DNA of 64,000 bases from an uncultured Gammaproteobacteria bacterium (GCA_964398665.1 CAYNNN010000005.1:2025-66024), one strand, 5' to 3'. Positions 19,566 through 60,127 are shown, counted from the stretch's first letter. Translations and numbers: made by a program. Notes: generated from the letters alone by a model not told the origin.

Positions 19566-20360
19566 TCAGGGCACTGCGGGGGCGAGTAACTGAATCTCCC
19601 AGCCCTGCTGTTGCAGGCGCAGTTGTAAATCCAGGGCCGTAGCCCGATCCGGCAGCGGGCCAACCCGCAGGCGCCACAGCCCGGCCCCGGCAGTCAGGCG
19701 GGCTTGCCAGGGCGGCGGCAATTGCATCTGGAGTTGCGTCTGCAAGGCCGCAGCCCGACCACGGGCACCGAAGGCCCCGGCCTGCAAATACCAGCCGTCA
19801 TCTGCTGCCAGCATCGTGTCAGCGCGTTCCCCCTGCGGAGAGGCCAGCGGTACCACCCCGCTTTCCGGCACGGTCAGGGCCTGCACCTCGACAGCACCCG
19901 TCCCGGTGATGCCCAGCTTGGCGGCGGCCACATAGGACAGATCAATCAGGCGATCTGCGACAAACGGTCCCCGGTCATTGACCCGCACCACCACCGCCTT
20001 GCCGCTCGCCAGGTTGGTCACACGCACATAGGTCGGCAGGGGCAAGGATTTATGTGCAGCCGTCATGCCCAGCATGTCGTAGGGTTCGCCGCTGGAGGTG
20101 GGCTTGCCATGAAACGCCTTGCCATACCAGGAGGCAGTGCCGCGTTCGACATAACCGACGGCACTGGGCATGACTCGATAGGCTTTGCCCCAGACTACAT
20201 AATCCTTGTTGCCGTAACGGCTCAGGGGTTCTGCCTTGGGGACAGCATCGGGGATTGCGGCCAGGTCTATCGGATCACTGGGCGGGCCATCACGCCCGCC
20301 CGACTGCGGTCCGGCACAACCGGCCAGACACACGGCCAACAGGAGGCTAGTGCCCCGCAT
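19566..20360 (-). CDS. rlpA: Septal ring lytic transglycosylase RlpA (lipoprotein, DPBB plus SPOR)
   Basis: Lipobox LAGC, GTASWYG, TAAHKSLPLP, VRVNDRGPF, RLIDLSY, C-terminal LQAGAF SPOR domain. Confidence 0.93.
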   Translation of the reverse strand: MRGTSLLLAVCLAGCAGPQSGGRDGPPSDPIDLAAIPDAVPKAEPLSRYGNKDYVVWGKAYRVMPSAVGYVERGTASWYGKAFHGKPTSSGEPYDMLGMTAAHKSLPLPTYVRVTNLASGKAVVVRVNDRGPFVADRLIDLSYVAAAKLGITGTGAVEVQALTVPESGVVPLASPQGERADTMLAADDGWYLQAGAFGARGRAAALQTQLQMQLPPPWQARLTAGAGLWRLRVGPLPDRATALDLQLRLQQQGWEIQLLAPAVP

Positions 20361-23300
20361 ACTCCAGCGCCTGCAAGGCCACCGTCCCAATCTGGTAGCC
20401 CTGCTGTTGCGCCAGATTGCGGATGAAATCCACCTGCTGCTTGGTCATTTCTCCAAACGAGAAATGTTGCGCGTAACCCGATACGCCCAGCAGGGTGGTC
20501 TCGGCCACGCAACCATAAACATGATCCACCGGTAGCCGGGTACCCTGCAATTTCAGGCCCTGAGCACCCGGCAACCGGGCCAGTCCCCCCGAAAGAATCT
20601 GGATGTGCGGATAGGCGTCAAATACGCTGTTGGCCACGTCCTTGGGCGTGGCAATATCGCAGATCACCACCACGCGCCTGGACAGATGCTGGGGGTAGAT
20701 CACCGGCCGAGCCGAGTTGGTACACGATACGATCACCGGGCAATCGGCCAAGTCAGTCAACTGGTCGGAGAGCTGAACCCAGCGCGCCCCGCCCAGTTCG
20801 GATTCGACCTGGGCGCGCAGGAAGGCCCCGATGGCCTCGGGCGGCGTGGCCTGCTGCATGAGCCGGGCATATGTCTGGGTCGTCGCCAAGGCTGCTGCCA
20901 GCCCGGATACCGGACCGCCGCGCTGCAAGGCCACCCAGGCATCGGCATACAGGGTATCCGCCACTTCACGCAGACCCTCGTCCTGCGCATTGCGACCGAA
21001 CAACCGGATCAGCGGCGAGTATTCAGCCAGGACCCGCGCACAGATCGAGCCAATGTTACCCTTGGCACCCACAACGGCAATAGGTGTTTCAGCCAGGATC
21101 AGGCCCTGGGCCTGTGCTGCACTGAGCGCCCCTTCAATGCCCAATGCAGCGGTGTAGGCATTGCCGGAAGTGAGGGCCAGCCCCGTTTCCGCGACAGCGG
21201 TGCAATTGAGGGTGACGATGGAGGTGTAGCCGCCAAAGCCGACCACCTTGCAACCGTGCTTGTGCGCCAGTTGCACGGCCTCGTCGATCTTGTACAGCAG
21301 CAGCTCGCGCTCTTCGGTGCGCATCATGGCCTCAAACAGCGCCCCGGTCAGCGGCAGGCCGATGATGGACAGATGCACCTGCGCTCCCGTGGCGGTGGTA
21401 ATGCGCATCTGCTGGGCGATGGCAATTTTGGAATACGGGAATAACTGGCGCAACAAAGGTTCGCGCAGGGCTTCCGGCACTTCGGCAAAGGAAGGTTCCA
21501 GTTGCAGCAGGGCGTCCAGATCTTCCAGGTGTCCGATATGCGCCACCCGAGGTTCATCACCGGGGGTCGTGTCGGTGTTAGGCGGCTGGCGGTCGCGCCA
21601 ATCCTGCACCGGCTCGCCTGGGTCGGTCTCGGCACCCACGACATAGCGCAACAACCGCCCGGCATTGGCATGACGGAAGATTTGGCACACATCGGCAAAT
21701 GCCGCAATGACCCGCTCCATTTCAGCCTCGGTAATCAACGCCGAGGGCAGGAAACGAATGGTGTTGCGGGTTTTGGTTGGTGCGATGCGGATTTGCTTGA
21801 CATTGAGCAAATAACCTGCAATCAGCATGTTGACCATTTCCATGCCATGCTGGGCGATCAGGCGCAGCATGAACGAGGGCGAATGTTGCTGGGGCGCCAG
21901 CTCAACACCCAGCATCAGGCCGGCCCCGCGCACTTCACGGATCACATCGGGATAATCCACGGCCAGTTGCCGCAATTTACCCAGAAACAACTGGCCACTG
22001 CGGGCACAGGTGGCCAGGATGTCTTCTTCTTGCAACAATTCCAGGGTACGCAGCGCCATCAGACAGCCCAGACGGTCTTCGGCAAAGGTTGAGCCGTGCA
22101 TATAGCCAAAATCGTCCTGATAACGACGTTCGCTGACCATCATGGCACTGACTTTGGTCAAACCACCGCCCAGACTCTTGGAAAAGGTGTAGTAATCTCC
22201 CCGCAGGCCAGAGAGTTCCGCTGCCGTGAAGGTACCCGTCCGGCCCATGCCGCACTGGATTTCATCCACCACGATGGGAAAACCGTACTCGTCCGCCAAC
22301 TGGCGTGCCGCCTGTAAAAACTCCGGCTTGACCGGGTGCATCCCGCCCTCGCCCTGAATCGGCTCCAGAAACAGGGCAGCGACCGGGTACCAGGGCTTGG
22401 CAGTGAGCGTGACGGCCCCCGCAGCATCCAGGGCAAACAGATAGATGGTCTGGCGCTCCGCCTCAATGGCTGCCTGCAAGGCGCCTGGCTCATGTCGAAT
22501 CCAGCGGGTGCGCAAGCCCATCCAGTGGAAAGGATGGCGGAAATCCGGGGACGCGGTCATGCTCAGGGCGCCGGTGGTCATGCCGTGGAACGCATGGGTC
22601 AGGGCCAGAAACAGCGGTTCCTGAGCCAGCACCTGACCATTGTGCGCCACCACGGCCTGATAGACTGCGGCCAGATCGGCACAGACCACGCCCAGCAGGG
22701 CAGCGGCTTCGGTATACAAGGTCGGCTGCACGGCTACCTGCCCCTTGTGATACTGGTCCAGCATCAGGGCGGCGAGGTTGTCCAGGTATTTTTCCTGCTG
22801 CAAGCCCTTGTTGCGCAGTTCCAGCTTGGCATGTTTGACCGCTGCTTCGACGGCCTCGGTGCCCGTGCTGGCCAAAGTGGCCACAAAGTGCTGCCCGGTC
22901 GCCTGATGCAGGCGCTCCGACAAGGCCCGGCCCAACTTGCCAGCGGCAATATTATTGCTGTGCTGCGCATTGATCGGCACCCCTTCGGCCAACAGCATCT
23001 GCATGTGCTGCACCAGCTCCGGGTGATTGTGACCCAGAATGGTGGAACCATAACCACCAACCATATCGAGGATTTCAACCTCCTGTCCCTGGATTTCGTA
23101 GTACAGATAATTCCCCTGGGCACGGGTATAGTGCTTGTCGGCCCCAATCACGGCGATGCGTCCGGCAATACCCCGACGGGCATAATGGCCATACAGCGCG
23201 GTATCGGGCAGCAATGCGGCTGCATCCGCTGTTGGCAGCGTCACAGTGCCCAGCAACTGGCCGATGCGTTCGGCCAGTTGGGCAATGGTTGGAGTTTCAA

Positions 23301-26300
23301 ACAGGGCACGGATCGGCAGTTCCACACCCAACTTGTCGCGCAGCTCGACGATCAGCCGGACCGCCAATTGTGAATACCCCCCGATTTCAAAGAAGTTTTC
23401 ATCAATGCCGATGTGATCGTTTTTCAGGATGTGCTGCCAGATGGCCAGAATGCGCTGCTCCAGGACATTACGCGGTGCGGCCAGGGCCTGAGGCCGGGTG
23501 GTCGTCACCGCAGGCAGGGCACGCCGGTCCACCTTGCCGTTGGAGGACAACGGTAAATTTTCCAGCAGCATGTAGAACTTCGGCACCATGTAGGCGGGCA
23601 GGCGCGCTTCCAGGTAACTACGCAGCTGGGTCAGGGTGAACTGACTGACCTGCGGCCCGCTGGCCCGGCGCAGGTAATGCACCGAATCCTGCAAGGCAGC
23701 AGCATACTGCGGGCTATGGAACTGCACCCCGCTGCGTTTGCCGCTGCGCCACAGCAGCTGGCTTTCCAGGCGGATAATCTCGCTCCCAATGGGCAGACGT
23801 ACACTGAGCGCAAACCGCTGGCCGGGTACCAGGTCGGCGGGTAAATCCAGTAGCTGTGCCCCGGCAGGCGCCAGACTGAGCAGCAAAGCTTCCGCTTCGC
23901 CCCCATCCCAACGCACCCGGCAGGGTTCCTGAGCGGGCAGACTCACGCTGTCCGGGTCAGCCAGCGGTCCACCCATGACCACACCGGCCTCGCTTTCCAT
24001 GACATAGGCCAGACTACGGCGCAGGTCGGTCAGCGCTGCTTCACCCTCCAGCTGCACGCACAACTGTTTTTGGGCCACCCAAAGAATTTCACCGTGATAT
24101 TCCCCCTGGGCCTCCAGCCCCGGCAAGTGCAGGCGCAGGCGCACATATTGGCGCGAATGCCACTCGCACAATTGCGTAGTCAGGGTCAGCGTCTGGGCCG
24201 AGAGCGCAGTCGCCTGCGCGGCAAACCAGGCCCCGGCATGGTCTTCCAGTTCACAGGCCACGGCGATTTCAGCCCGGGCCAGGTCCAGCAGGGAGACCAC
24301 GTAAGCCACCAGCTGTTTTTCGCCTGCCGCTTCGGTAACGGAAACCACGCATTCCTTGACCGCCGGATGCTGGGACAACACCGCCTCGATTTCGCCCAGT
24401 TCAATCCGGTAGCCCTGGATTTTGACCTGAAAATCTTCCCGGCCCAAAAATTCGATATTGCCGTCGGGCCAATAGCGGCCCAAATCTCCGGTGCGATATA
24501 GACGTTCCCCAGTATGGGGATTGCAGATGAAGCGGGCAGCGGTTTTCTCCGGATCGCGCCAGTAGCCCAGCGCCACCCCTACCCCGCCAATGTACAACTC
24601 ACCGGGCACCCAGGTCGGACAGGGCAAATACTGGCTATCCAGCACGTGGAAAGTCTGATTCACCATCGGGCGGCCATAAGGAATGCTGACCCAGTGCGGC
24701 TCCACCCGGGTTACATGATAGGCGATCGACCAGATCGAGGCTTCGGTGGCCCCACCCAAGCTGAAGAATTGCACCTGCGGAGCCAGCGTCCAGAGCGTGT
24801 CAGGCAGCTTCAGCGGAATCCAGTCGCCACTGAGCATCACCAGCCGCAACGAAGGGGGCAGGCTCAGGCGATGACCCTGGACATACTCCAGCAGGATCTT
24901 CATCAGGGCCGGGGCGGTGTTCCAGACGGTCACCTGATGCCGGACGGCCAGTTCCAGCCAATGGGCCGGATCACGCTGCCGCTGCGGGTCGGGCAGTATC
25001 AAGGCCCCGCCTGCGCCCAGGAGTCCGAAAATGTCGTACACCGACAGGTCAAAGGACAGCGAGGACAGGGCCAGCACCCGGTCGCTGTCCTGGACCCGGA
25101 ACCGGGTATTGACATCCACCACCGTGTTGATGGCACCTTGATGGTCGATCATCACGCCTTTGGGCGTGCCGGTCGAACCCGAGGTGAAGATGGTATAGGC
25201 CAGCGCATCCAGCCGCTGAACCGGCTCCAGCTCATCCCCCAGCTCTGCGGCAAACGGGTGAGCGTCCAGGGCAAAGACCTGCACCGTCTCGGGCCAGGTC
25301 AGCCGGGAAACCACCCAGCTCTGGCTCAGGACAAAGCGGGTATCGGTATGGGCCAGCAGATAATCGATCCGGGTCTGAGGCAGGGCCGGATCGATGGGTA
25401 AATAAGCCCCGCCGGCTTGCAGAATGCCCAGGACGGCGACAATCTGCTCCCAACCTTTTTCCGTGACCACGGCCACCAGTTCACCCGGCACCACCCCGCG
25501 CGCCCGCAAGGCCCGCCCAATCCGGTTGGTCTCCTGCCACAACTCCCCGTAACACCAGGTGCGATCGGCGGCAATCACGGCAATCTGGCTCGGGCGCAGT
25601 CTCGCCTGCAAGCCGACGCCTTCCTGCAACCGCAGGCCCGGTAGCGGCGCAGCCGTGGCATTGACCTGCGCCCGCTGCTCCAGTTGAGCAAGCGGTGTCA
25701 GTTGTGGCAGGGACTGCCAGCGGGCTTCATCCTGAGCCAGCCGGTGCAGGTAAGCCTGATAGGCGGCAAACATTTCATCCAGCAAACCCGCCGGGAACAA
25801 GGCTTCCACCGCATCCCAGCTATAAACCAGGTCAGCGCCGTCTTCCAGCACCTGATGATCCAGCCAGACTTGCGGGGTCTGGGACACGCTGTACACCCGC
25901 TGGCCCAGCCAGTCCACCGCTGAATCTGCCCCGGTCTGTAACCCCAGGGCACTGGTGAACACTACCGGCAGACTGACGTTCTGACGGCCCTCCAGGCGCG
26001 CCCATTCTTGCAGGATGCTCAGGCCATTGACCTGGCGATGCGCCAAATCCTGCCACAACTGCCGCTGTACCCGCTCGGCCCGTTCTTCAAAACTGGCCGC
26101 ATGACGCAAATCCACCGCCAGCGGCAGCAGGGCGGTAAAATCACCGACCAGTTGCTCCACTTCGGGATGGGCCGGAATCCGGTTGAATGTGGTCAGATTC
26201 AGGGTAAAGTGCGGGCGTTTGCTCCAGGTCGCCAGCACACAGGCAAACGCCGTGGCCAGCAACACCGAGGGCGTGAGATTGCCCTGCTGCCCACGCTGTT

Positions 26301-29300
26301 TCAGCGCCTGCCACAGCGGCGCGGCCAAGCGGCCCTGGCGTCGGACAAAGTGAGGCTTGCCTACGGTGGCCGGTGGACGCGCCAGCGGCAGTTCCGGCGC
26401 AGGTGGCAATTCTGCCAGCCGGGCGCGCCAGTATGCCAGCGCCGTCTGGTAGTCTGCCCGGCCCTGCCAGCTCCGCTCGGCCAGCACATAGTCACGAAAG
26501 CTCAGGCCCAGCGGCGCCAGCGCCTGGGTCGGGTTGGCATATAGCTCGCCCCACTGGCGAAACAGCAGTAACAAGCTCCAGACATCTGCAATCAGCAGGT
26601 CGATGCTGACATGCACCCGGGTCAAATCCTCGGGCAGGATGCTGGCACGAATTTCAAACAGCGGCCACAAGGCGGTGTCATAAACCTGATGCGACATCCG
26701 CGTCCGCACCGCTTCCAGGGCGGTGCTGCGTACCGCCCGATCGGCGTGGCGCAGATCGGCCACTGCTATCGCGTAAGGCGCAACTTCCGGCAGCATGCGC
26801 TGCTGGCCGTGGGCGTCCACCACCAGGCGCAAGGCCCCGTGGTGTTGAATCAGACGCTGCCAGGCCGCTTCCAGACGTGCGACATCAAGACCGGCGTGCT
26901 CGAATTCCGCATAAAAATGGCAGGCGACTCCACCCAATTCCAGGCTTTCGACCCGCCCCAGCCAGTAAGCGGTCTGGATTTCGTTGAGCGGAAACGGTTG
27001 CGCCTGCTGCGCCCGATCAGGCTGCAAGGTCAGTGCCTGACGCTCGACACCACTGGCCGCCAGGGCCTGCGCGGCCAACTCCCCTATCGTGGCAGCATTG
27101 CCCAGCAAACTCACCGGCAAGGTCCGGCCCAGATGCTGTTCCAAATCGCCCAGCAGCCGCAGGGCCGTCACTGAATCCACCCCCAGCGCCCCCAGCACGC
27201 TGCTGGCCTGCACCGTTGCAACCGGTACGTGCAGGCGCTCTGCGACTCGGCCCACAAGCCAGGCAGTGAGCTGGCCTGCGGCGGTCTCCAGTGCAGCCTG
27301 CACCGGTTCTGCGTCAGGTCCGGCCGACGTGGCCGGGACATCCCAGGCCCAGGCCAGATCCAACTGGCCCTGAAGATAGTCCTGCCTGGCACGTTGCCGT
27401 TGCACCTTGCCACTGGAAGTCTTGGGCAGGCCGCCAAAATTCAGCAGGACCAGTTGCTGGAGCTGCAATTCATGTTGCTCGGCCACTGCCCGGCGTACCG
27501 CCGTCAGGAGTTCTTCCGGATGTGGGGCCAGGGCGCTGCTGCTATCGCCGACCGCACGAAACTGACGCTTTTTCAAATCGCGCTGATAACGCCGATCCAC
27601 CTCGGCGACCATGATCAGTTGCGGTTCTCCGGCCGCACTGTCCACGGCAAAAGCAATGCTGTTGCCCACACCAATGGGCAGATAGCCACTGCTGCCCACC
27701 AATTCGCGCAGGGTCTCGTCCAGCGTCCATTCCAGATCCTGGGGATAATGATTGCGGCCCCGGATGATCAGCACATCTTTCAGGCGCCCGGTGATGAACA
27801 GCTCCCCGTCATGGATGAAACCCAGATCCCCGGTGCGCATGAACGGCCCTTCCCCGGTATCGCTCAAGTGCGCCCGGAACGTGCGTTCGGTCTCATCCTC
27901 ACGGCCCCAGTAGCCCTGAGCGACATGGCGGCCCTGCACCCAGATTTCCCCCACCCGGTTGCGCGGGGTGCGGGTCCGTTCCTCCGGATCGGCCAGGACA
28001 ACCTGCTCAAACCCCAAGGCACAGCCATTGCCCACAAAAGTCTGGCTCCCGCTGCTCAGGGTCGTCAGCATGACCTTGCCGGCCCGCAAGCCATCAGCCA
28101 CCACACCCTGATGCACTGGCCCCGCGCCCGGTTTACCCCCCGTCACCAGCAAGGTCGCTTCGGCCAGCCCATAGCTGGGATAGAACGCTTCCCGGCTAAA
28201 ACCCAAAGGCGCGTAAGTCTTGGCAAAGCGATCCAGACTCTTGGGATTGACCGGCTCGGCACCGGTGAGCAAAAAGCGCCAGGTCGACAAGTCCAGGCCC
28301 GCCTGGGCAGCCGGGTCTATTTCATCCACACACAGATCAAAGGCAAAATTGGGGGCGATAGAGGCCGTGGCCCGAAACCGGCTCATGGCCGTCAGCCAGC
28401 GCAGCGGTTTTTGCAAAAAGGCAGCCGGGGGCATGAAGATACAGCGCATGCCCCGGTACAATGGGAATAGCAACAGGCCAATCAGGCCCATATCGTGAAA
28501 CAGGGGCAGCCAGCCGCACCCGACATCCTGTTCGGTCAGGCCAAAACCGTCCTCCATCATCCGCAGGTTGGTCAGCAGATTGGTATGACTGACCATCACG
28601 CCCTTGGGCGCCCCGGTTGACCCCGAGGTGTATTGCAGCAAGGCTAGGTCATCACCTTGCAGCCTGGGCATGGCCCAGCGCTCGGCATCCGTCAGGACAA
28701 CCTGATCCGTCACCAGCCAGTGCAGGGCCTTGAGCGCCGGCACTTCATCCAGCATCGGCTCCAGGGTTTGTTGAATGCCACGGGTAGTCAACACGGCCGC
28801 CGGCCGGGCATCCTGAATGATGGCACTGAGGCGGCGCAGATTGCGGTTCCGCCGGGGTGGATAGGCCGGAACGGCGATCACGCCGGCATATAGACAGCCA
28901 AAGAACGCACTGATGAACTCCAGTCCGGAGGGGTAAAACAGCAGGGCACGTTCCCCTGCCAGACCCAGACCCTGCAATTGCGCAGCGATGGCGCGGGCCT
29001 GCTTGTCCAGCAATGCATAATCAATCGGCTGGCCATCCCCCTCACCGTCGGGCAGGAACCGGTAGGCTTCCGCTTCGGGACGCAATTTGGCCCGAGTGCG
29101 CAACACATCCACCAGGGTCTCGTAAGCCAGGCCCTTGTTGCCATACTCAAACAGCATCAGACGGACTTTGGGCAGGAAGCGTTCCTGCGGCGGATACACC
29201 GGCTTGTCGATAAAGGCATCCACCCGCGCCTGGGTGATGGCATTCTTGACCAGTTCCACATCCTGGCCATAAGCCGTCACCAACACCCGTTTGGTGCGCG

Positions 29301-29547
29301 GGTAATGCTCATAGACATGGGCCAGCAATTCGATACCCTGAATGCCGGGCATGCGCTGGTCAGATAGCACCAGGGCTATTTCAGCCGTATCCGTACTCAG
29401 GTAGGTGAGCAGCTCCAGGGCCTCTTCCCCGCTGGCGGCGGTGACGATTTGATAATCCTCAGCGAAATGTTCGGTCAGAATGCGGGCCAAGGATTCCCGC
29501 ACCCCCTCTTCATCGTCCACCAGCACGATATAAGGCTGATTGTCCAC
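20347..29547 (-). CDS. 3066-aa hybrid megasynthetase: REC - FAAL - ACP - Cy - A(Cys, with PilZ-like insert) - PCP - class III aminotransferase - acyl-ACP-reductase-like
   Basis: REC (VLVDD, SDQRMP, VTAY, DKP); FAAL (LQYTSGSTG, WLPLFHDMGL, YGLAEATL); ACP (GVDSV); Cy (FPLNEIQTAY, DLLIAD); A (FDLSVYD, LSGDWIP, GGATEASIWS, GKVDR); PCP (IGGYS); PLP enzyme (VDEIQCGMGRTG, FSKSLGGG); Rossmann reductase (GFGGYTS, TSGN, VVGAKGNIG). Confidence 0.9.
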   Translation of the reverse strand: MDNQPYIVLVDDEEGVRESLARILTEHFAEDYQIVTAASGEEALELLTYLSTDTAEIALVLSDQRMPGIQGIELLAHVYEHYPRTKRVLVTAYGQDVELVKNAITQARVDAFIDKPVYPPQERFLPKVRLMLFEYGNKGLAYETLVDVLRTRAKLRPEAEAYRFLPDGEGDGQPIDYALLDKQARAIAAQLQGLGLAGERALLFYPSGLEFISAFFGCLYAGVIAVPAYPPRRNRNLRRLSAIIQDARPAAVLTTRGIQQTLEPMLDEVPALKALHWLVTDQVVLTDAERWAMPRLQGDDLALLQYTSGSTGAPKGVMVSHTNLLTNLRMMEDGFGLTEQDVGCGWLPLFHDMGLIGLLLFPLYRGMRCIFMPPAAFLQKPLRWLTAMSRFRATASIAPNFAFDLCVDEIDPAAQAGLDLSTWRFLLTGAEPVNPKSLDRFAKTYAPLGFSREAFYPSYGLAEATLLVTGGKPGAGPVHQGVVADGLRAGKVMLTTLSSGSQTFVGNGCALGFEQVVLADPEERTRTPRNRVGEIWVQGRHVAQGYWGREDETERTFRAHLSDTGEGPFMRTGDLGFIHDGELFITGRLKDVLIIRGRNHYPQDLEWTLDETLRELVGSSGYLPIGVGNSIAFAVDSAAGEPQLIMVAEVDRRYQRDLKKRQFRAVGDSSSALAPHPEELLTAVRRAVAEQHELQLQQLVLLNFGGLPKTSSGKVQRQRARQDYLQGQLDLAWAWDVPATSAGPDAEPVQAALETAAGQLTAWLVGRVAERLHVPVATVQASSVLGALGVDSVTALRLLGDLEQHLGRTLPVSLLGNAATIGELAAQALAASGVERQALTLQPDRAQQAQPFPLNEIQTAYWLGRVESLELGGVACHFYAEFEHAGLDVARLEAAWQRLIQHHGALRLVVDAHGQQRMLPEVAPYAIAVADLRHADRAVRSTALEAVRTRMSHQVYDTALWPLFEIRASILPEDLTRVHVSIDLLIADVWSLLLLFRQWGELYANPTQALAPLGLSFRDYVLAERSWQGRADYQTALAYWRARLAELPPAPELPLARPPATVGKPHFVRRQGRLAAPLWQALKQRGQQGNLTPSVLLATAFACVLATWSKRPHFTLNLTTFNRIPAHPEVEQLVGDFTALLPLAVDLRHAASFEERAERVQRQLWQDLAHRQVNGLSILQEWARLEGRQNVSLPVVFTSALGLQTGADSAVDWLGQRVYSVSQTPQVWLDHQVLEDGADLVYSWDAVEALFPAGLLDEMFAAYQAYLHRLAQDEARWQSLPQLTPLAQLEQRAQVNATAAPLPGLRLQEGVGLQARLRPSQIAVIAADRTWCYGELWQETNRIGRALRARGVVPGELVAVVTEKGWEQIVAVLGILQAGGAYLPIDPALPQTRIDYLLAHTDTRFVLSQSWVVSRLTWPETVQVFALDAHPFAAELGDELEPVQRLDALAYTIFTSGSTGTPKGVMIDHQGAINTVVDVNTRFRVQDSDRVLALSSLSFDLSVYDIFGLLGAGGALILPDPQRQRDPAHWLELAVRHQVTVWNTAPALMKILLEYVQGHRLSLPPSLRLVMLSGDWIPLKLPDTLWTLAPQVQFFSLGGATEASIWSIAYHVTRVEPHWVSIPYGRPMVNQTFHVLDSQYLPCPTWVPGELYIGGVGVALGYWRDPEKTAARFICNPHTGERLYRTGDLGRYWPDGNIEFLGREDFQVKIQGYRIELGEIEAVLSQHPAVKECVVSVTEAAGEKQLVAYVVSLLDLARAEIAVACELEDHAGAWFAAQATALSAQTLTLTTQLCEWHSRQYVRLRLHLPGLEAQGEYHGEILWVAQKQLCVQLEGEAALTDLRRSLAYVMESEAGVVMGGPLADPDSVSLPAQEPCRVRWDGGEAEALLLSLAPAGAQLLDLPADLVPGQRFALSVRLPIGSEIIRLESQLLWRSGKRSGVQFHSPQYAAALQDSVHYLRRASGPQVSQFTLTQLRSYLEARLPAYMVPKFYMLLENLPLSSNGKVDRRALPAVTTTRPQALAAPRNVLEQRILAIWQHILKNDHIGIDENFFEIGGYSQLAVRLIVELRDKLGVELPIRALFETPTIAQLAERIGQLLGTVTLPTADAAALLPDTALYGHYARRGIAGRIAVIGADKHYTRAQGNYLYYEIQGQEVEILDMVGGYGSTILGHNHPELVQHMQMLLAEGVPINAQHSNNIAAGKLGRALSERLHQATGQHFVATLASTGTEAVEAAVKHAKLELRNKGLQQEKYLDNLAALMLDQYHKGQVAVQPTLYTEAAALLGVVCADLAAVYQAVVAHNGQVLAQEPLFLALTHAFHGMTTGALSMTASPDFRHPFHWMGLRTRWIRHEPGALQAAIEAERQTIYLFALDAAGAVTLTAKPWYPVAALFLEPIQGEGGMHPVKPEFLQAARQLADEYGFPIVVDEIQCGMGRTGTFTAAELSGLRGDYYTFSKSLGGGLTKVSAMMVSERRYQDDFGYMHGSTFAEDRLGCLMALRTLELLQEEDILATCARSGQLFLGKLRQLAVDYPDVIREVRGAGLMLGVELAPQQHSPSFMLRLIAQHGMEMVNMLIAGYLLNVKQIRIAPTKTRNTIRFLPSALITEAEMERVIAAFADVCQIFRHANAGRLLRYVVGAETDPGEPVQDWRDRQPPNTDTTPGDEPRVAHIGHLEDLDALLQLEPSFAEVPEALREPLLRQLFPYSKIAIAQQMRITTATGAQVHLSIIGLPLTGALFEAMMRTEERELLLYKIDEAVQLAHKHGCKVVGFGGYTSIVTLNCTAVAETGLALTSGNAYTAALGIEGALSAAQAQGLILAETPIAVVGAKGNIGSICARVLAEYSPLIRLFGRNAQDEGLREVADTLYADAWVALQRGGPVSGLAAALATTQTYARLMQQATPPEAIGAFLRAQVESELGGARWVQLSDQLTDLADCPVIVSCTNSARPVIYPQHLSRRVVVICDIATPKDVANSVFDAYPHIQILSGGLARLPGAQGLKLQGTRLPVDHVYGCVAETTLLGVSGYAQHFSFGEMTKQQVDFIRNLAQQQGYQIGTVALQALEYAGH

Positions 29548-29578
29548 GTAAGCACTCCCCCTAATACTAATAATGAAT

Positions 29579-31081
29579 TCAACGCCCGCCGTGCGCTATC
29601 AGCGGCAAGGTCAGAACAAACCGGGTTTCACCAGGACGAGAACGCACCTGCAGACTGCCCTGATGACCCTCCTCGATGATGCGCTTGGCATCGAACAATC
29701 CCAGCCCCGTGCCCTTCTTGCCGCTTTTGGTCGTGACAAACGGCTTGAAAATTTCCGCCTGCAAGGCGGCCGGAATGCCTTCCTTGCCGTTGTCCAGAAT
29801 TTCTGCGCTGATCTGCCCGGAACCCGCCTGGGTCGTCAGGGTGATTTCCCCCCCTTCCCCAACGGCATCAATGGCATTTTCGATCAAGTAGACAAAGCAG
29901 TACATCAGGTCCACCGGGAACCCCGACAGCGGCGGCAATTCGGCAAATTGCGAGTTGATCTTGATCCCCTTGAGCCGAAAGGACAGCATGTCCAGGGCAC
30001 TGCCAATCACCTGATTCAGGTTGATATGATCGGAGGGTTTGGCACGCTCCGGCTGGGCGGCATTCAGCACCATGAAGATTTCCTTGGAAAGCTGGGTCGC
30101 ATTGCTGCCCGTGTTACGCAACTGCGCCCCCACCTGCACCACCACGCGCACCAGCTCCAGCCAGCGGTCCAGCGGCCCCAGCAATTCCGCCAGCATCTGC
30201 AACTGGGGGGCCGTGAGCAAATGTCTGGCCGCCAGACTGTAATGCTCCCGCTTCAACCCCAGGCCCGCGCCCTGCGCAGCCGCCTGCAACCTGGCAGCCG
30301 CCTGCAGGATTTCCAGCGAAGTCGGCAGACGCTGAACCAGGGCTTGTTCAAATACCGCCTGCAATACTGCCAATCCCGCCTGCAACTCGGTCTCAGTCTG
30401 CGTGCCCAGCCACGGGATACCCGTCGTGAGCAGCCAACGCACATCCTGGGTCAGATTGGGCTGGGCGCTTTCTATCGCCACTGCCGGATTCTTCAACCGG
30501 TGGGACAGGCTGGACAGCAGGCGGCTGGTGATGGTGGCACGTTCACTCTGAATCAGCTTGACCTGCGTTTCCCGCAGGCTGGCCAAGGCCTGGGAAAGTT
30601 CGCTGGTGCGTTTTTCCAGATCACGTTTGTATTGCTGTTCCTTGCGCTGATAGAAATATTTCTCGCAGGCATGTTTGACCTTGAGGCGCATCTCCATTTC
30701 TGGCGCCCCCTTGACGATATAAGACTCAAACCCGTAACTGACGATCTCGGAAATGTTGTGTTCATCATCATGGCCGGTGTGCATGATGATGGGCACGTGC
30801 GGGAATTTGCGCCAGATGCGTCGGGAAGCCTCAAAGCCTGACATGGTGGGCATTTTGGCATCCATCACCACGCAGGCAATGTCGTCAGTCATGCTGTCTA
30901 GGGCTTCCTCGCCGCTGGAGGCCAGGGAGACCTCGTAATCCTGGAAGACCTTGCGCAAAATGGCCAGGGCTGCATCCGAATCATCCACCAGCAGCAACCC
31001 GACCCGTGTTTCACCCTCGGGCAAAAACGCCGCCGCCGCAGGGGCCGGATGTCCTGCTGCGCAAGGCGCTTCAGTTACCAT
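29579..31081 (-). CDS. Hybrid REC-histidine kinase (cytoplasmic)
   Basis: REC LLVDD, VMDAKMP, HTG, VKG; H-box SHRLKNP; N-box LIENAIDA; DNG; FKPFVTTK; GTGLGL. No hydrophobic segment. Confidence 0.88.
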   Translation of the reverse strand: MVTEAPCAAGHPAPAAAAFLPEGETRVGLLLVDDSDAALAILRKVFQDYEVSLASSGEEALDSMTDDIACVVMDAKMPTMSGFEASRRIWRKFPHVPIIMHTGHDDEHNISEIVSYGFESYIVKGAPEMEMRLKVKHACEKYFYQRKEQQYKRDLEKRTSELSQALASLRETQVKLIQSERATITSRLLSSLSHRLKNPAVAIESAQPNLTQDVRWLLTTGIPWLGTQTETELQAGLAVLQAVFEQALVQRLPTSLEILQAAARLQAAAQGAGLGLKREHYSLAARHLLTAPQLQMLAELLGPLDRWLELVRVVVQVGAQLRNTGSNATQLSKEIFMVLNAAQPERAKPSDHINLNQVIGSALDMLSFRLKGIKINSQFAELPPLSGFPVDLMYCFVYLIENAIDAVGEGGEITLTTQAGSGQISAEILDNGKEGIPAALQAEIFKPFVTTKSGKKGTGLGLFDAKRIIEEGHQGSLQVRSRPGETRFVLTLPLIAHGGR

Positions 31082-31093: not shown

Positions 31094-32365
31094 CTAGAAG
31101 TGATAATTCAGACGGAGCTGAACCAGACTGTCATCGCGGGAGCTATAGAGGTAATCAATCTCGTCCTGGTTAAAAAACAGCAGGGCATCCAGATTCAGTT
31201 TCCAGGCTTCGCCCAGGCGCCGGCTACCTTCCAGCTTGATCAGATCCCCATGCCCGTCGAGGTCATGCCCCCAGGCCAGCAATGCGGAAGTATCGGCCGC
31301 ATCATTCAGACCCAGACGCAGGCCGACAAACAGATCGTTGGCAAAAGCCGAATTGGCCAGTTCATCGCGGTCATCGTACAAATATTCCACCAGCAGGTTC
31401 AGTTCGGCCCCGGCGATCCCGGCATCGCTGAAGGCATATTCAAAGCCCCCGGTGAAGGCGAAATAATCATTTTCCAACCCCAACAAATCTTCCTGACCAC
31501 TCCGGTGGATGGCTTCCAGCTTCCACAGCCAGCTCTCGTTGGCCCAGAGTACCTCCAGCCCGGTCTGGTCAATCTGCTCGTAATAAGGCGCCAGCACAAA
31601 GCGTGCATCGGGGGTGACGGCAATACGGAAACTGGGGTCGCGGCTGGTGCCGCTAAAATGCGACAACGCCAGTTCCAGATCGCCCAGCAGCAGGTGATAG
31701 CGAGCAGCAAAATCCACATGCTGTTGTTTGTCAGGATCTTCATACTGGGTCAGGTCGGTGTCCACGTACGGCTCAAACCGTAGCCGACCCTCGGCGCCCG
31801 GAAAGGTGCGTTCCCGGAAATAAGGCAGGACAAACAGGCTCAAGGTACCCGACCCCTGCGCCCAGTCCAGGCGCACCATCGGCTGGCCCAGCTTGTCCTC
31901 GCCTTCCGGAAATTCAACCAGATCAGTCTGGTTGACGATATCCACCAGATGCTGAAACTCCGTGACGCCCCAGAAAACCTTCCCGACCCCAAGCTGAAGA
32001 TTCAGATCACTACCCAGCGCCCGACTCCAGCTCAGTTCCCGGATATCGGCATGACTACGTTCGGAATCAGCGCTATCCAGACGCACAAACGGTCTGAAGA
32101 CCCAGCGACCCGAGGCAGCCGTATATTGATATTCCGGCTCGGCCTGAAATCCCAGGCTGTGCTCTTCTTGATCCGGGTACAGCGGGTCTTCAAAGAACAG
32201 CCGACCTTCCAGCCCTACATAACCCGACCAGCCCGACTTGGATGCCGCATCATCGGCAACCCGCTTGTCCTTGTGCGCGACCTCAAGCGCATCAGCCCAA
32301 ACGGACCCGGCCCCCACCAGTAACCCAAGCGCCAGCGCCAGCCAGCCCCCCTGTCGTTGCAACAT
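31094..32365 (-). CDS. Outer-membrane beta-barrel of the MMPL/LolA-like-associated type
   Basis: Signal peptide, DIREL, GVGKVFWGVTE...LVDIVNQTD, alternating beta-strands, terminal LNYHF. Confidence 0.75.
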   Translation of the reverse strand: MLQRQGGWLALALGLLVGAGSVWADALEVAHKDKRVADDAASKSGWSGYVGLEGRLFFEDPLYPDQEEHSLGFQAEPEYQYTAASGRWVFRPFVRLDSADSERSHADIRELSWSRALGSDLNLQLGVGKVFWGVTEFQHLVDIVNQTDLVEFPEGEDKLGQPMVRLDWAQGSGTLSLFVLPYFRERTFPGAEGRLRFEPYVDTDLTQYEDPDKQQHVDFAARYHLLLGDLELALSHFSGTSRDPSFRIAVTPDARFVLAPYYEQIDQTGLEVLWANESWLWKLEAIHRSGQEDLLGLENDYFAFTGGFEYAFSDAGIAGAELNLLVEYLYDDRDELANSAFANDLFVGLRLGLNDAADTSALLAWGHDLDGHGDLIKLEGSRRLGEAWKLNLDALLFFNQDEIDYLYSSRDDSLVQLRLNYHF

Positions 32366-32418
32366 GACACACTCCCCCAAGCATTTTAATTATCATTGCA
32401 AATTGGCATGCAGACCGA

Positions 32419-33825
32419 TCAGGAACCGCGTTCCAGCGCATTCGGGCTGAATTGCTCCGCTGTCAGGCCGGAACGGAACTGATAGTTTTTCCACAGCAGC
32501 CGCGTGGTCTTGCTATTCTGGCGATTTTGCATCAGATATTCCTCAGCCCGCCAGTAACGCCCCAGATATTGTTGATATTTATTGATTTCCAGAGTCTTCA
32601 GCAAGTCGCCCTTGCGATCATAGTAGCTGACCTTGCGCAGCAACAGATCCTGTTGGTCGATCCAGCGTTCCTGCCGGGTATAACCCGACTTGGCATCTAC
32701 CGGATAGGCATCCACCACAAAGCAGGTCCTGTCACCACACGCCTCCTCACGCAAGAATTTATATTGATATTTTTCGACTTCCTGAGTGCTCAGATCCTCA
32801 TAGGCAAATTCACTGCCCACAAAGGAGCCGGATTTATTGGCTGAGCTGATGCGCTTGACCCGCTTCAGGGCCGGCAGGTACAGCCACTGGTCATCAGCGT
32901 CAGTCTTGTGGCTATGCGTCAACAGGGCTGTTCCGGCAATGTCCGCCGGGCGGTTGAACAACACCAGGCTTTTATCGCCATCACCGGCAGCCTCCAGCGT
33001 GCTGTAGCTGATATAGCGCGTAACCTCATCGCCATTGGGATTACTCAGAACCATGATGATGTCGGCACGAAAATCTCCAAACCCGGTATCGCGGCGGTCG
33101 GCCTCCTGCACGATGGCCAGGCCCTTGGCTTCGGGGTCCATCCCCGGCGTCAATACCTGTGCCAGGGCCGTGATCGGCGGCGCCGCCACCGCAGCCGCCG
33201 TGGCTACGGCGGGTACTGGCTCAGGCGCCGGTTTTTCCACCGGCTGCTCAGCCACCCGTTCTGCGGGTTTGGGTTTGGCCACAACCTCCGCCGGCTTTTC
33301 CACCACTGACTTTTCCACCGCTGGTGTGCTCACAGGCACCGGGTCAGCAGTCACCGTGCGCGGGGCCGGCTTAGGCTTGGGTTTGGGCTTGGCGCGCACA
33401 GGCTCGGGGGCCACTTCGGCGGCTTCAACCGCTTCCTCTGCCACTGGCTGCGCCTTGGGCTTGACCCGCGATTTTTGCGCCTTGGGCGTTTTGCTCGCCG
33501 GCGCCACTGCCTCAAATTGCACCGCCAGGGTATGGGCCTTGTTCACCGCCTGAAAAGTGTAACTGGTGACTGCGCCGACTTCAGCCCCGTCCACCGACAC
33601 CGACTGCACCTGATAACCAGGGTCAGGCAATATCACGAAAGCCCGGTCATGACCCGCCTCGACGGGAATATCCCCTTTAGGGGTCACACTGCCCCCGGCG
33701 CCCGCCACAGCGGTGATGACATGCGTTCTGGCCGGCGCAGCTTCCTTGACCGGTTCCGAAGTACAGGCCACCAGACCCAACAGGGCGCCGGCCCAGAAAA
33801 GCTGTCGTAGTTTGTCATACACCAT
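32419..33825 (-). CDS. Lipoprotein: InlB-B-like repeat, Pro/Ala/Lys linker and LolA-like (lipoprotein-sorting) domain
   Basis: Lipobox LVAC; C-terminal GTALL, DDQWLYLPALKRVKRISS, SFVGSEFAYEDL, YYDRKGDLLK. Confidence 0.82.
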   Translation of the reverse strand: MVYDKLRQLFWAGALLGLVACTSEPVKEAAPARTHVITAVAGAGGSVTPKGDIPVEAGHDRAFVILPDPGYQVQSVSVDGAEVGAVTSYTFQAVNKAHTLAVQFEAVAPASKTPKAQKSRVKPKAQPVAEEAVEAAEVAPEPVRAKPKPKPKPAPRTVTADPVPVSTPAVEKSVVEKPAEVVAKPKPAERVAEQPVEKPAPEPVPAVATAAAVAAPPITALAQVLTPGMDPEAKGLAIVQEADRRDTGFGDFRADIIMVLSNPNGDEVTRYISYSTLEAAGDGDKSLVLFNRPADIAGTALLTHSHKTDADDQWLYLPALKRVKRISSANKSGSFVGSEFAYEDLSTQEVEKYQYKFLREEACGDRTCFVVDAYPVDAKSGYTRQERWIDQQDLLLRKVSYYDRKGDLLKTLEINKYQQYLGRYWRAEEYLMQNRQNSKTTRLLWKNYQFRSGLTAEQFSPNALERGS

Positions 33826-39373: not shown

Positions 39374-39386
39374 GGTCGGATTAGCC

Positions 39387-40349: not shown

Positions 40350-40529
40350 CTAGCGCACCGGCCCGCGCTCATCAAACAGGGGGGTCTGCGCTTCCGGCGG
40401 GTGGTCATCACGCCCGCTACCGAACTCCAGCGTGGTGGCCGTCAGATACAGGGCGACGAGGACGGCAGCCAAAATGCCCCACTTGGCCAGGGTGACCAGA
40501 CTCTGGATCAGTTTTCTGACCGTGTGCAT
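40350..40529 (-). CDS. Possible small single-pass membrane protein (59 aa)
   Basis: [29 protein letters not shown] hydrophobic segment; otherwise unsupported. Confidence 0.4.
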
Positions 40530-55197: not shown

Positions 55198-55206
55198 CCG
55201 GCCCCC

Positions 55207-58075: not shown

Positions 58076-58076
58076 G

Positions 58077-58949: not shown

Positions 58950-58956
58950 AACCATC

Positions 58957-60126: not shown

Positions 60127-60127
60127 C

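What the first reader, a model, noticed from the sequence alone, without database searches (positions are those of the whole stretch)
20347..29547. Self-contained 3066-aa lipo-thiazoline assembly line with unusual domain order
Seen: FAAL-ACP loading, one Cy domain (DLLIAD), an A domain whose pocket residues read about DLYNMSLIWK, PCP, then two tailoring domains; no thioesterase or canonical R domain. Known: that code is Cys-specific in yersiniabactin/pyochelin-type enzymes, and Cy plus Cys gives a thiazoline. Inference: the product is a small 2-alkyl-thiazoline lipid, more like a signal or metal ligand than a peptide antibiotic.
Basis: partly seen in the sequence, partly recalled or inferred. 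Interest (0 to 1): 0.82.

Follow-up and report, generated by a model that had tools for sequence, protein, structure and literature searches.

The report
Signal-wired lipo-thiazoline amine synthetase
One 3066-residue enzyme of an uncultured sludge gammaproteobacterium is predicted to join a fatty acid to cysteine, close a thiazoline ring and release the product as an amine; it also carries two signalling domains not reported in such enzymes, so it is an uncharacterised variant built from known parts.

Summary
ORF 20347..29547 (-) is a real, intact 3066-aa gene, reproduced without a difference in contigs from two independent sludge studies.

It reads FAAL-ACP-Cy-A-PCP with a DLLIAD Cy motif and the cysteine code DLYNMSLIWK. 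There is no TE and no SDR-type R domain.

- The two "tailoring" domains are the release machinery. They form a class-III transaminase plus AAR-type thioester reductase pair, collinear with TamH (33% identity, end to end). TamH has been shown to release carrier-bound acyl chains as aldehydes and aminate them. The predicted product is therefore a 2-alkyl-thiazolin-4-yl-methanamine, not a bare alkyl-thiazoline.
- An apparently intact receiver (REC) domain sits at the N-terminus.
- A ~215-aa YcgR-like PilZN-PilZ double barrel is inserted between A8 and A9. Relatives keep canonical RRxxxR and D/NxSxxG motifs. This copy has lost them.

About 20 full-length relatives exist, all metagenomic and unnamed. 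All six flanked loci keep an MMPL transporter beside the synthetase. Four keep the LolA-like carrier, the ~400-aa barrel-like protein and a type II thioesterase as well. This points to an exported lipid.

No characterised cluster of this architecture was found in the searchable literature. Verdict: new variant of known kinds. Chemistry and regulation are inferred, not shown.

The parts
29173..29547 (-). Receiver (REC) domain, residues 1-125. Acidic pair D11/D12, acceptor D63 (LSDQRMP), T91, K115.
   Evidence: Pfam Response_reg E 1.7e-16, 60.8 bits against a cut-off of 30.2. Residues located. Among the relatives examined only P0005 also has it.
27343..29130 (-). Fatty acyl-AMP ligase (FAAL) loading domain, residues 140-735.
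   Evidence: Best NCBIfam models are FAAL families: PRK05850, FadD32, FAAL21 and FAAL28. Closest solved structures are FAALs: 7r7e-g at E 5e-161, 3kxw, FadD32, FadD23, FadD28 and 3pbk.
27043..27285 (-). Acyl carrier protein, residues ~755-835, with Ser792 in GVDS.
   Evidence: Pfam PP-binding finds two stretches in the protein. Motif located.
25678..27006 (-). Heterocyclisation (Cy) domain, residues 848-1290. Motifs FPLNEIQTAY852, DLLIAD983, VVFTS1195, SQTPQVWLD1222.
   Evidence: Pfam Condensation. Motifs. Closest solved relatives are BmdB, FmoA3, PchE, EpoB and HMWP2 Cy domains.
24295..25650 (-). Adenylation domain, N-terminal part up to QLVAYVV (residues 1300-1751). Carries nine of the ten code residues, DLYNMSLIW.
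   Evidence: TIGR01733 E 2e-172. Code extracted.
23650..24294 (-). YcgR-like PilZN-PilZ double beta-barrel inserted between A8 and A9, residues ~1752-1966. The c-di-GMP motifs are degenerate in this copy: RRxxxR is deleted and SLAPAG replaces D/NxSxxG.
   Evidence: Pfam PilZ 29.4 bits (cut-off 22.5) for the insert alone; 11 of 13 family inserts match, best E 2.7e-20. Alignment. AF2 model pLDDT 83.7 with two barrels. Foldseek top hits are MotI/DgrA, VCA0042, PlzA, YcgR and MrkH.
23503..23649 (-). Adenylation domain C-terminal part: A9 (LPAYMVP at 1983) and A10 (NGKVDR at 2003, code residue K2005).
23248..23475 (-). Peptidyl carrier protein, residues ~2025-2100, with Ser2059 in GGYS.
   Evidence: Pfam PP-binding at 2031-2095. 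Motif located.
21673..23220 (-). Class-III (omega) transaminase domain, residues 2110-2625. Motifs DEIQCGMGRTG at 2428 and PLP lysine K2457 (FSKSLGGG).
   Evidence: Pfam Aminotran_3 E 4e-67. Closest solved relative is the aldehyde-aminating CrmG 5dds, E 6e-87, aligned end to end. Collinear with TamH homologues.
20350..21510 (-). AAR / PigE-N / TamH-type thioester reductase domain, residues 2680-3066. Motifs GAKGNIG at 2827 and Cys3013 (YGCVAET).
   Evidence: PDB hits PigE 4ppm at E 4e-16 and acyl-ACP reductase 6jzq at E 8e-13. Cys3013 aligns with chain position 294 of AAR. NCBIfam PigE and AcACP_reductase. The Cys and the glycine motif are invariant in 12 aligned family members.
29579..31081 (-). 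REC plus histidine-kinase ATPase protein (500 aa), 31 nt upstream of the synthetase. Candidate phosphodonor.
   Evidence: Pfam Response_reg and HATPase_c. NCBIfam histidine-kinase models.
31094..32380 (-). Conserved 428-aa secreted protein, probably an outer-membrane beta-barrel. It has a signal peptide and ends in ...RLNYHF.
   Evidence: No family hit. Sequence. Weak DUF1302-like motif. AF2 model is all-beta with ~18 strands, pLDDT 62.8. Foldseek top hits are AlgE and porins. Homologues sit beside the synthetase in L001, L002 and L058.
32419..33825 (-). LolA-like (TP_0789/DUF1329-type) periplasmic lipid carrier.
   Evidence: Pfam LolA_like E 2e-63. Conserved beside the synthetase.
33865..37230 (-). 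MMPL / HAE3-type RND transporter with two N-terminal REC domains.
   Evidence: Pfam Response_reg x2 and MMPL. TIGR00921 HAE3, with a weaker HpnN-like match. An MMPL gene lies beside every homologous synthetase with flanks.
37324..38016 (-). Sfp/HetI-type 4'-phosphopantetheinyl transferase.
   Evidence: Pfam AASDHPPT_N and ACPS. NCBIfam HetI.
38013..38753 (-). Type II (editing) thioesterase.
   Evidence: Pfam Thioesterase E 7e-44. Conserved in L001, L002, L003, L047 and L058.
38750..39418 (-). LuxR/GerE-type response regulator at the head of the co-directional gene row.
   Evidence: Pfam Response_reg and GerE. GerE-type regulators also lie beside the synthetase in L001 and L058.

Best explanation
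The gene encodes a single-module lipo-NRPS, predicted to work as follows.
1. The FAAL adenylates a fatty acid and loads it on the ACP.
2. The A domain loads L-cysteine on the PCP.
3. The Cy domain acylates the cysteine amine and cyclodehydrates it to a 2-alkyl-thiazoline-4-carbonyl thioester.
4. The C-terminal AAR-type reductase takes the chain onto Cys3013 and reduces it with NAD(P)H to the thiazoline-4-carbaldehyde.
5. The adjacent PLP transaminase converts the aldehyde to (2-alkyl-4,5-dihydrothiazol-4-yl)methanamine.

The cluster supplies the PPTase and an editing thioesterase. A REC-REC-MMPL transporter, a LolA-like carrier and a probable outer-membrane barrel then move this cationic lipid across the envelope.

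Output is probably switched at the protein level by phosphorylation of the N-terminal REC domain. In relatives, c-di-GMP binding to the PilZN-PilZ insert probably does the same. In this copy the insert has lost the binding motifs.

Shown by sequence: domain identities, order, catalytic motifs and conserved gene neighbourhood. Inferred: every chemical step, the chain length, the export route and the regulation.
For: - Domain map and motifs.
- Cysteine code DLYNMSLIWK, kept as DLYN[LM]SLIW or a close variant across the family.
- The Cy-A-PCP part is closest to BmdB, FmoA3 and PchE.
- The TR domain is homologous to PigE-N and to acyl-ACP reductase, with the catalytic Cys aligned.
- The TA domain is closest to CrmG.
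- TA-TR is collinear over ~920 residues with Pseudoalteromonas TamH homologues (33% identity, E 2e-152).
- PtTamH was shown to turn TamA-ACP-bound C12 acyl chains into C12 amine and to refuse acyl-CoA (PMC9594044). PigE reduces a thioester before transamination (PMC8341465 abstract).
- There is no TE or SDR-type R domain to compete for release.
- Natural FAAL-ACP-TA-TR and PKS-ACP-TA-TR fusions show that TA-TR is a recurrent terminal unit.
- Conserved neighbours: an MMPL gene in all six flanked loci, a type II thioesterase in five, the LolA-like carrier and the ~400-460-aa barrel-like protein in four.
- Barrel prediction.
- REC residues appear intact.
Against: - Nothing was measured: no product, no substrate assay and no expression data.
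- The thiazoline-4-carbaldehyde is an alpha-imino aldehyde and may racemise, oxidise or hydrolyse. The free amine could attack C2 and rearrange the ring.
- Fatty-acid chain length is unknown.
- TamH-type reductases have been tested only on plain acyl-ACPs, not on heterocyclic acyl-PCPs.
- The PilZ motifs are lost in this copy.
- REC is present in only 2 of ~24 relatives, so regulation through these domains is not a family trait.
- The barrel model has only moderate confidence (pLDDT 62.8, 4 sequences).
Confidence: 0.6

Rival explanations
1. Release stops at the aldehyde, or goes on to the alcohol. The product would then be a 2-alkyl-thiazoline-4-carbaldehyde or -methanol, comparable to aeruginaldehyde and aerugine from the pyochelin pathway (my own knowledge). 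The transaminase would be inactive on it or serve another substrate.
For: The reductase motifs are intact. AAR-type enzymes release aldehydes (PMC9594044). No transaminase of this family has been tested on a heterocyclic aldehyde.
Against: The TA domain keeps its PLP lysine and the DEIQxGxGRTG motif. It is fused next to TR in every relative. Its closest solved relative, CrmG, aminates an aldehyde borne on a heteroaromatic (bipyridine) ring (function from my own knowledge). In TamH both steps are coupled.
Confidence: 0.15
2. The ring is not kept. Either the Cy domain only condenses, or the thiazoline opens or rearranges after release. The real product would be an open-chain N-acyl-2-amino-3-mercaptopropylamine, or a 2-alkyl-imidazoline thiol formed when the new amine attacks C2.
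For: Thiazolines are imino-thioethers open to attack by amines and water (general chemistry; inference). No oxidase domain is present to fix the ring as a thiazole.
Against: All Cy signature motifs, including DxxxxD, FTS and QVxLD, are present. FTS and the Cy7 motif are found in nearly all family members, while my strict DxxxxD pattern missed five. The closest solved relatives are cyclising domains.
Confidence: 0.12
3. The A domain activates another residue (Ser, Thr or a modified Cys/Ser), giving an oxazoline or another ring.
For: The second-best solved relative, FmoA3, does not load cysteine; by my recollection it loads alpha-methyl-serine (for the match only).
Against: The code DLYNMSLIWK equals or nearly equals the codes of the A domains in proteins that their sources name yersiniabactin synthetases. 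It is DLYN[LM]SLIW in 17 of 22 family members and a close variant in the rest.
Confidence: 0.05
4. Biological role rival: the amine-thiazoline lipid is a metal ligand (an N,N-bidentate chelator, for copper or nickel for example) rather than a surface lipid or signal.
For: Thiazoline N plus a primary amine form a chelating pair (inference). In the Sulfuricurvum-type locus the synthetase lies directly behind CusF, multicopper oxidase, OEP and SCO1 genes. In the window it lies next to NiFe hydrogenase genes.
Against: The metal genes are not conserved in the other loci. No TonB-dependent receptor or uptake system is in the cluster. The conserved partners are lipid exporters.
Confidence: 0.15

Closest known systems
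PtTamA + PtTamH, tambjamine YP1 pathway of Pseudoalteromonas tunicata (PMC5939613, PMC9594044)
   Same: An FAAL-type adenylation domain with its ACP loads a fatty acid. A class-III transaminase fused N-terminally to an AAR-type thioester reductase releases the carrier-bound chain as an aldehyde and aminates it. The window's residues 2100-3066 are collinear with TamH homologues at 33% identity. The GxxGxxG motif and the catalytic Cys are kept.
   Different: All parts are here in one polypeptide, with a complete Cy-A-PCP module between loader and releaser. The released chain is therefore a thiazolinyl acyl group, not a plain fatty acyl. There are no pyrrole or bipyrrole genes. The protein also has a REC domain and a PilZ insert.
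Cys-specific heterocyclisation modules: BmdB (bacillamide), PchE/PchF (pyochelin), HMWP2 (yersiniabactin)
   Same: Cy-A-PCP order, the DxxxxD Cy motif and a DLYN[LM]SLIWK code. BmdB is the closest solved structure at E 8e-222.
   Different: The donor is a fatty acyl-ACP rather than an aminoacyl or aryl carrier. There is a single module and no oxidase. Release is by TA-TR rather than by TE or a downstream module. The A domain is interrupted by a PilZN-PilZ module rather than by a methyltransferase or epimerase.
PigE (prodigiosin MAP branch; PDB 4ppm) and cyanobacterial acyl-ACP reductase (PDB 6jzq)
   Same: The reductase fold and the catalytic cysteine. PigE also couples thioester reduction to transamination (PMC8341465).
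   Different: PigE has the reductase in front of the transaminase; here the order is TA then TR, as in TamH. AAR is a free-standing enzyme that feeds alkane synthesis.
MxcG/MxcL of myxochelin B biosynthesis (my own knowledge, not checked here)
   Same: An NRPS product released reductively as an aldehyde and then transaminated to an amine.
   Different: MxcG uses a canonical SDR-type R domain and MxcL is a separate enzyme. Here the reductase is AAR-type and both activities are fused to the synthetase.
YcgR / MotI(DgrA) / PlzD(VCA0042) two-domain c-di-GMP receptors
   Same: The insert's model has two beta-barrels and its best structural matches are these proteins. Relatives' inserts carry RRxxxR and D/NxSxxG.
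   Different: The module is embedded in the C-terminal subdomain of an adenylation domain instead of standing alone. The window's copy lacks both binding motifs.
HpnN-type / HAE3 MMPL lipid exporters with LolA-like partners (hopanoid transport; aryl-polyene clusters from my own knowledge)
   Same: An inner-membrane MMPL/RND protein is paired with a LolA-like periplasmic protein next to a lipid biosynthetic gene.
   Different: This transporter carries two N-terminal receiver domains. A dedicated barrel protein is conserved with it. The cargo is unknown.

Membership tests
NRPS heterocyclisation (Cy) module specific for cysteine | DxxxxD replaces the HHxxxDG motif of C domains | tested here: met
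   DLLIAD at 983-988.
NRPS heterocyclisation (Cy) module specific for cysteine | Further Cy core motifs: FPLTxxQxAY, FTS and SQTPQVxLD | tested here: met
   FPLNEIQTAY852, VVFTS1195 and SQTPQVWLD1222. FTS and the Cy7 motif are found in nearly all relatives; the strict Cy1 pattern matched only about half.
NRPS heterocyclisation (Cy) module specific for cysteine | A-domain code of the DLYN(L/M)SLIWK type | tested here: met
   DLYNMSLIWK. The same or a one-residue variant occurs in proteins that their sources name yersiniabactin synthetases.
NRPS heterocyclisation (Cy) module specific for cysteine | Cysteine activation and thiazoline formation in vitro | not testable with these tools
   Needs ATP-PPi exchange and product analysis.
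Fatty acyl-AMP ligase (FAAL) | Best matches are FAAL families and structures rather than acyl-CoA ligases | tested here: met
   NCBIfam PRK05850, FadD32, FAAL21 and FAAL28. PDB 7r7e-g, 3kxw, FadD32, FadD23, FadD28 and 3pbk.
Fatty acyl-AMP ligase (FAAL) | Transfers to a carrier protein, not to CoA | tested here: inconclusive
   An ACP follows directly in the same chain. The FAAL-specific insertion was not mapped residue by residue and activity was not tested.
TamH-type transaminase-thioester reductase (TA-TR) release pair | N-terminal class-III PLP transaminase fused to a C-terminal AAR-type reductase, collinear over the whole length | tested here: met
   33% identity over ~920 columns to the 942-aa P. 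citrea TamH homologue, E 2e-152.
TamH-type transaminase-thioester reductase (TA-TR) release pair | Nucleotide motif GxxGxxG and catalytic cysteine equivalent to AAR C294 / TamH C887 | tested here: met
   GAKGNIG at 2827. Cys3013 aligns with chain position 294 of 6jzq and with the Cys of PigE. Both are invariant in 12 relatives. Residue roles are taken from PMC9594044.
TamH-type transaminase-thioester reductase (TA-TR) release pair | PLP-binding lysine | tested here: met
   K2457 in FSKSLGGG, found by motif, with DEIQCGMGRTG at 2428.
TamH-type transaminase-thioester reductase (TA-TR) release pair | Carrier-protein-dependent conversion of a thioester to an amine | not testable with these tools
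   Biochemical assay needed.
PilZ / YcgR-like c-di-GMP receptor | PilZ beta-barrel fold, two-barrel YcgR-like arrangement | tested here: met
   Pfam PilZ 29.4 bits against a cut-off of 22.5. AF2 pLDDT 83.7. Foldseek top hits are MotI, VCA0042, PlzA, YcgR and MrkH, probability 1.00.
PilZ / YcgR-like c-di-GMP receptor | RxxxR motif before the barrel | tested here: not met
   The window's row has a 4-residue gap and no arginine where relatives have RRxxxR.
PilZ / YcgR-like c-di-GMP receptor | D/NxSxxG motif | tested here: not met
   SLAPAG in the window, against DFSSSG, NISSSG, DISRDG and similar in relatives.
Response-regulator receiver domain | Acidic pocket, phospho-acceptor Asp, and conserved Thr/Ser and Lys | tested here: met
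   D11, D12, D63, T91 and K115.
Response-regulator receiver domain | Phosphorylation by a cognate kinase changes enzyme output | not testable with these tools
   A REC-kinase gene lies 31 nt upstream, but no functional data exist.
Canonical NRPS terminal reductase (SDR-type R domain) or type I thioesterase | NAD_binding_4/SDR fold, or an alpha/beta-hydrolase TE at the C-terminus | tested here: not met
   No such Pfam hit in the 3066 residues. The only thioesterase is the separate type II enzyme at 38013-38753.

The most novel reading that the evidence does not exclude
This family may be the first assembly line whose catalysis is gated directly by bacterial signalling. Phosphorylation of a receiver domain fused to the FAAL (this protein and P0005) and c-di-GMP binding to a YcgR-like module inside the mobile C-terminal subdomain of the A domain (relatives with intact RRxxxR and D/NxSxxG) would switch production of an exported cationic thiazoline lipid on and off. 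The receiver-bearing MMPL exporter would be switched in parallel. The window's copy would have exchanged c-di-GMP control for phospho-control.
Probability: 0.3. Interest if true: 0.85.

Novelty: new variant of a known kind. Interest (0 to 1): 0.62.

Why it matters
Three things would follow if the reading holds.
- A TamH-type transaminase-reductase pair would be established as a general chain-release device of NRPS and PKS lines, giving primary amines. That is useful for pathway prediction and for engineering amine-terminated products.
- A small, conserved and so far unnamed gene cluster would be defined: synthetase, PPTase, editing thioesterase, MMPL, LolA-like carrier and barrel. It occurs in sulfur- and hydrogen-oxidising bacteria of sludge, vents and sediments and would make an exported thiazoline-amine lipid of unknown role.
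- Receiver and PilZ domains built into the synthetase offer a directly testable case of post-translational, second-messenger control of non-ribosomal synthesis. I found no report of this.

Tried and rejected
- Looked for a TE or SDR-type R domain in the protein: none.
- Considered that the transaminase acts on a beta-keto thioester, as in the iturin/mycosubtilin AMT domains. Rejected because there is no KS and the TA sits after the PCP, fused to a reductase exactly as in TamH.
- Considered that the C-terminal domain is a shikimate or glutamyl-tRNA-reductase-like tailoring dehydrogenase (Pfam Shikimate_DH, E 0.002, below cut-off). Rejected in favour of AAR/PigE-N homology with an aligned catalytic Cys.
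ArgH is at most 68% identical to any named species, all Gammaproteobacteria.
- Six literature searches looked for a characterised FAAL-Cy-TA-TR cluster, for PilZ or REC in NRPSs, or for alkyl-thiazoline lipids. Apart from the TamH and PigE papers found, they returned nothing relevant. The search for aryl-polyene MMPL/LolA export gave only one marginal hit, so that analogy rests on my own knowledge.
- Asked whether the 428-aa protein belongs to DUF1302. Only one short motif is shared and there is no Pfam or NCBIfam hit, so it is called a probable barrel from the fold model alone.

Full report

The window has an uninterrupted ORF at 20347..29547 on the minus strand, 3066 aa with a GTG start. A purine-rich stretch (GGGGAG) precedes the start, 31 nt after the stop of the upstream gene.

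The same 10 kb (20000-30000) is found with 0 differences and no joints in contigs from two independent studies of activated-sludge metagenomes. One run has a single 27.6-kb contig. Two runs of the other study have overlapping contigs that tile it. The gene is therefore not an assembly chimera.

The organism is an uncultured gammaproteobacterium. Its argininosuccinate lyase is at most 68% identical to that of any named species, and all of those are Gammaproteobacteria.

**2. Domain map**

Sources: Pfam, NCBIfam, segment BLAST, motifs.

- **REC, 1-125.** D11/D12, acceptor D63, T91 and K115 are present.
- **FAAL, 140-735.** Best models are FadD32 and FAAL21/28-type. The closest structures are all FAALs.
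- **ACP.** Ser792.
- **Cy, 848-1290.** Motifs FPLNEIQTAY, DLLIAD983, VVFTS and SQTPQVWLD.
- **A, 1300-2015.**
- **PCP.** Ser2059.
- **Class-III transaminase, 2110-2625.** Motif DEIQCGMGRTG and K2457.
- **C-terminal NAD(P)-binding domain, 2680-3066.** Motif GAKGNIG and Cys3013.

There is no thioesterase and no SDR-type reductase domain.

Seventeen of 22 relatives carry DLYN[LM]SLIW, the other five a close variant. So do the A domains of proteins that their sources name yersiniabactin synthetases.

The closest solved module is the Cys-activating Cy-A-PCP of bacillamide synthetase BmdB (E 8e-222). FmoA3 and PchE follow.

**3. What the two "tailoring" domains are**

The last ~390 residues match PigE (PDB 4ppm, its N-terminal domain, E 4e-16) and cyanobacterial acyl-ACP reductase (6jzq, E 8e-13). 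Cys3013 aligns with position 294 of the AAR chain. NCBIfam gives the same two families.

The transaminase is closest, end to end, to CrmG (E 6e-87).

Residues 2100-3066 as a block are collinear with the 942-aa TamH homologue of Pseudoalteromonas citrea and its relatives (33% identity, E 2e-152).

PtTamH has been characterised (PMC9594044, read). It is an N-terminal omega-transaminase fused to a C-terminal AAR-type thioester reductase with GxxGxxG and a putative catalytic Cys887. It converts TamA-ACP-bound C12 acyl chains to the C12 amine and does not accept acyl-CoA. PigE likewise reduces a thioester before transaminating (PMC8341465 abstract).

These domains are therefore the chain-release machinery. 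The chain is released by reduction to an aldehyde, which is then aminated. Domain order (TA, TR) is the reverse of reaction order, as in TamH.

**4. Predicted chemistry (inferred)**

1. Fatty acyl-AMP is formed and the acyl chain is loaded on the ACP.
2. The Cy domain N-acylates Cys-S-PCP and cyclodehydrates it to 2-alkyl-thiazoline-4-carbonyl-S-PCP.
3. The chain is transferred to Cys3013 and reduced by hydride to 2-alkyl-thiazoline-4-carbaldehyde.
4. Transamination gives (2-alkyl-4,5-dihydrothiazol-4-yl)methanamine.

No oxidase domain is present, so a thiazole is not expected. Ring opening or rearrangement to an imidazoline thiol after amination is chemically conceivable and cannot be excluded.

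**5. The extra domains**

A8 (GREDFQVK at 1702) and A9 (LPAYMVP at 1983) are 281 residues apart. In relatives without the insert they are ~70 apart.

The ~215 inserted residues (~1752-1966) match Pfam PilZ at 29.4 bits against a cut-off of 22.5. Eleven of 13 family inserts match, best E 2.7e-20.

An AlphaFold2 model (pLDDT 83.7) shows two beta-barrels, each followed by a helix. Its best structural matches in the PDB are the two-domain c-di-GMP receptors MotI/DgrA, VCA0042/PlzD, PlzA, YcgR and MrkH, all at probability 1.00.

In the alignment, seven or eight relatives carry canonical RRxxxR and D/NxSxxG in the second barrel. Examples are GRRQEFR...DFSSSG, VRRTNFR...DISRDG and LRHDYR...NISSSG. 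The window's protein has a 4-residue deletion with no arginine at the first motif and SLAPAG at the second. The fold is therefore kept, but c-di-GMP binding is unlikely in this copy.

The REC domain is present only here and in the closest relative, P0005 (56% identity).

I found no paper describing REC or PilZ domains in an NRPS. The library searched does not include most subscription journals.

**6. The family and its neighbourhood**

About 20 full-length relatives (42-56% identity, ~2870-3113 aa) exist. All come from metagenomes or MAGs, and none carries a name beyond "amino acid adenylation domain-containing protein".

Variants keep the terminal Cy-A-PCP-TA-TR block but are primed differently:
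- by a further Cy-A module (P0010, P0032);
- by PKS modules (P0054, P0060, P0067, P0075);
- or they stand alone (P0059).

Among species-representative genomes, the FAAL-primed form is in a Chromatiaceae MAG and in Sulfuricurvum. PKS-primed forms are in "Deltaproteobacteria" MAGs.

A profile of the TR domain finds 937 representatives at E <= 1e-30 among 1.84 billion. Most are ~950-aa TamH-like didomains. Only about a dozen 50%-identity clusters are 2500 aa or longer. A few are single-chain FAAL-ACP-TA-TR proteins or highly reducing PKS modules ending in ACP-TA-TR. The TA-TR pair is thus a recurrent terminal unit, and the Cy-A-PCP-bearing form is rare.

In every locus with enough flank an MMPL transporter lies beside the synthetase. 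Four of the six also keep the LolA-like (TP_0789/DUF1329-type) protein and an unannotated ~400-467-aa protein. Five keep a type II thioesterase, and two or three a PPTase.

In the window these genes form one co-directional row from 39418 to 20347:
- LuxR-type response regulator;
- type II thioesterase;
- PPTase;
- REC-REC-MMPL (HAE3/HpnN-like);
- LolA-like carrier;
- the 428-aa protein;
- REC-histidine kinase;
- the synthetase.

The 428-aa protein has a signal peptide and a C-terminal ...NYHF. Its model is all-beta with ~18 strands (pLDDT 62.8) and resembles AlgE and porins. Together the genes suggest an inner-membrane pump, a periplasmic carrier and an outer-membrane barrel for a lipid.

**7. 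Comparison with the known**

The protein works like TamA plus TamH with a BmdB/PchE-type cysteine heterocyclisation module spliced between them. It meets the sequence-level criteria of each of these families (see the membership table).

It does not meet the motif criteria of a c-di-GMP-binding PilZ domain, although its relatives do. It has no canonical R or TE domain.

Reductive release followed by transamination is known for myxochelin B, with a different type of reductase and a separate aminotransferase (my own knowledge). No characterised pathway combining FAAL loading, a Cy module and TA-TR release was found.

**8. Verdict**

The finding is a new variant of known kinds. It is a rare, conserved and uncharacterised cluster for an exported thiazoline-amine lipid. 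Signalling domains built into the synthetase and its exporter are its most unusual and most testable aspect. All chemistry, export and regulation are inferred from sequence, so overall confidence in the full mechanism is about 0.6.

Noticed in passing
window 47765-56241 (-): A second lipid-handling gene set: LolA-like (55207-56241), DUF1302 barrel (53272-55197), an MMPL domain fused to a histidine kinase (49926-53282) and a REC-PAS-GGDEF-EAL protein (47765-49936). It could sense a lipid and set c-di-GMP levels. It lies ~8 kb from the synthetase cluster, separated by housekeeping genes.
   Followed up: partly
window 56487-63999 (-): Type III-B CRISPR genes: RAMP proteins, Cmr3 and Cas10/Cmr2.
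   Followed up: no
P0252, P0254, P0340, P0366; P0245, P0250, P0320 (protein representatives): Single-chain FAAL-ACP-TA-TR proteins (1513-1688 aa), and highly reducing PKS modules ending in ACP-TA-TR (KS-AT-DH-ER-KR in P0245 and P0320). The TamH-type pair serves as a terminal release unit of several assembly-line types.
   Followed up: partly
L002 1900-9850 (the matching part of L047 was not examined): In the Sulfuricurvum-type locus the synthetase lies directly behind copper genes (SCO1/SenC, multicopper oxidase, OEP, CusF) and a two-component pair. This is not seen in the other loci.
   Followed up: no
L058/L059 3083-23761: A hydrothermal-vent relative has an acyl-CoA dehydrogenase and a second MMPL gene beside the synthetase. 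An IS200-type Y1 transposase lies between the export genes and the synthetase. Neighbours are sulfur-metabolism genes: DsrE, rhodanese and a sulfate transporter.
   Followed up: no
window 19566-20390 (-): An RlpA-like lipoprotein gene (DPBB plus SPOR domains) follows the synthetase. With the listed TTG start it overlaps the synthetase's last 44 nt, and its lipobox (LAGC) lies just after the synthetase stop codon.
   Followed up: no
window 40401-42098 (+): The argininosuccinate lyase ORF is listed as 565 aa, but homologues are 460-470 aa and cover about 80% of it. The true start is probably ~100 codons downstream.
   Followed up: no
L002 18610-19038; JGI contig of P0016, locus coordinates 18869-19306: A small DUF8292-type gene (142-145 aa) directly follows the synthetase in two relatives. 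I did not check whether the window has one.
   Followed up: no
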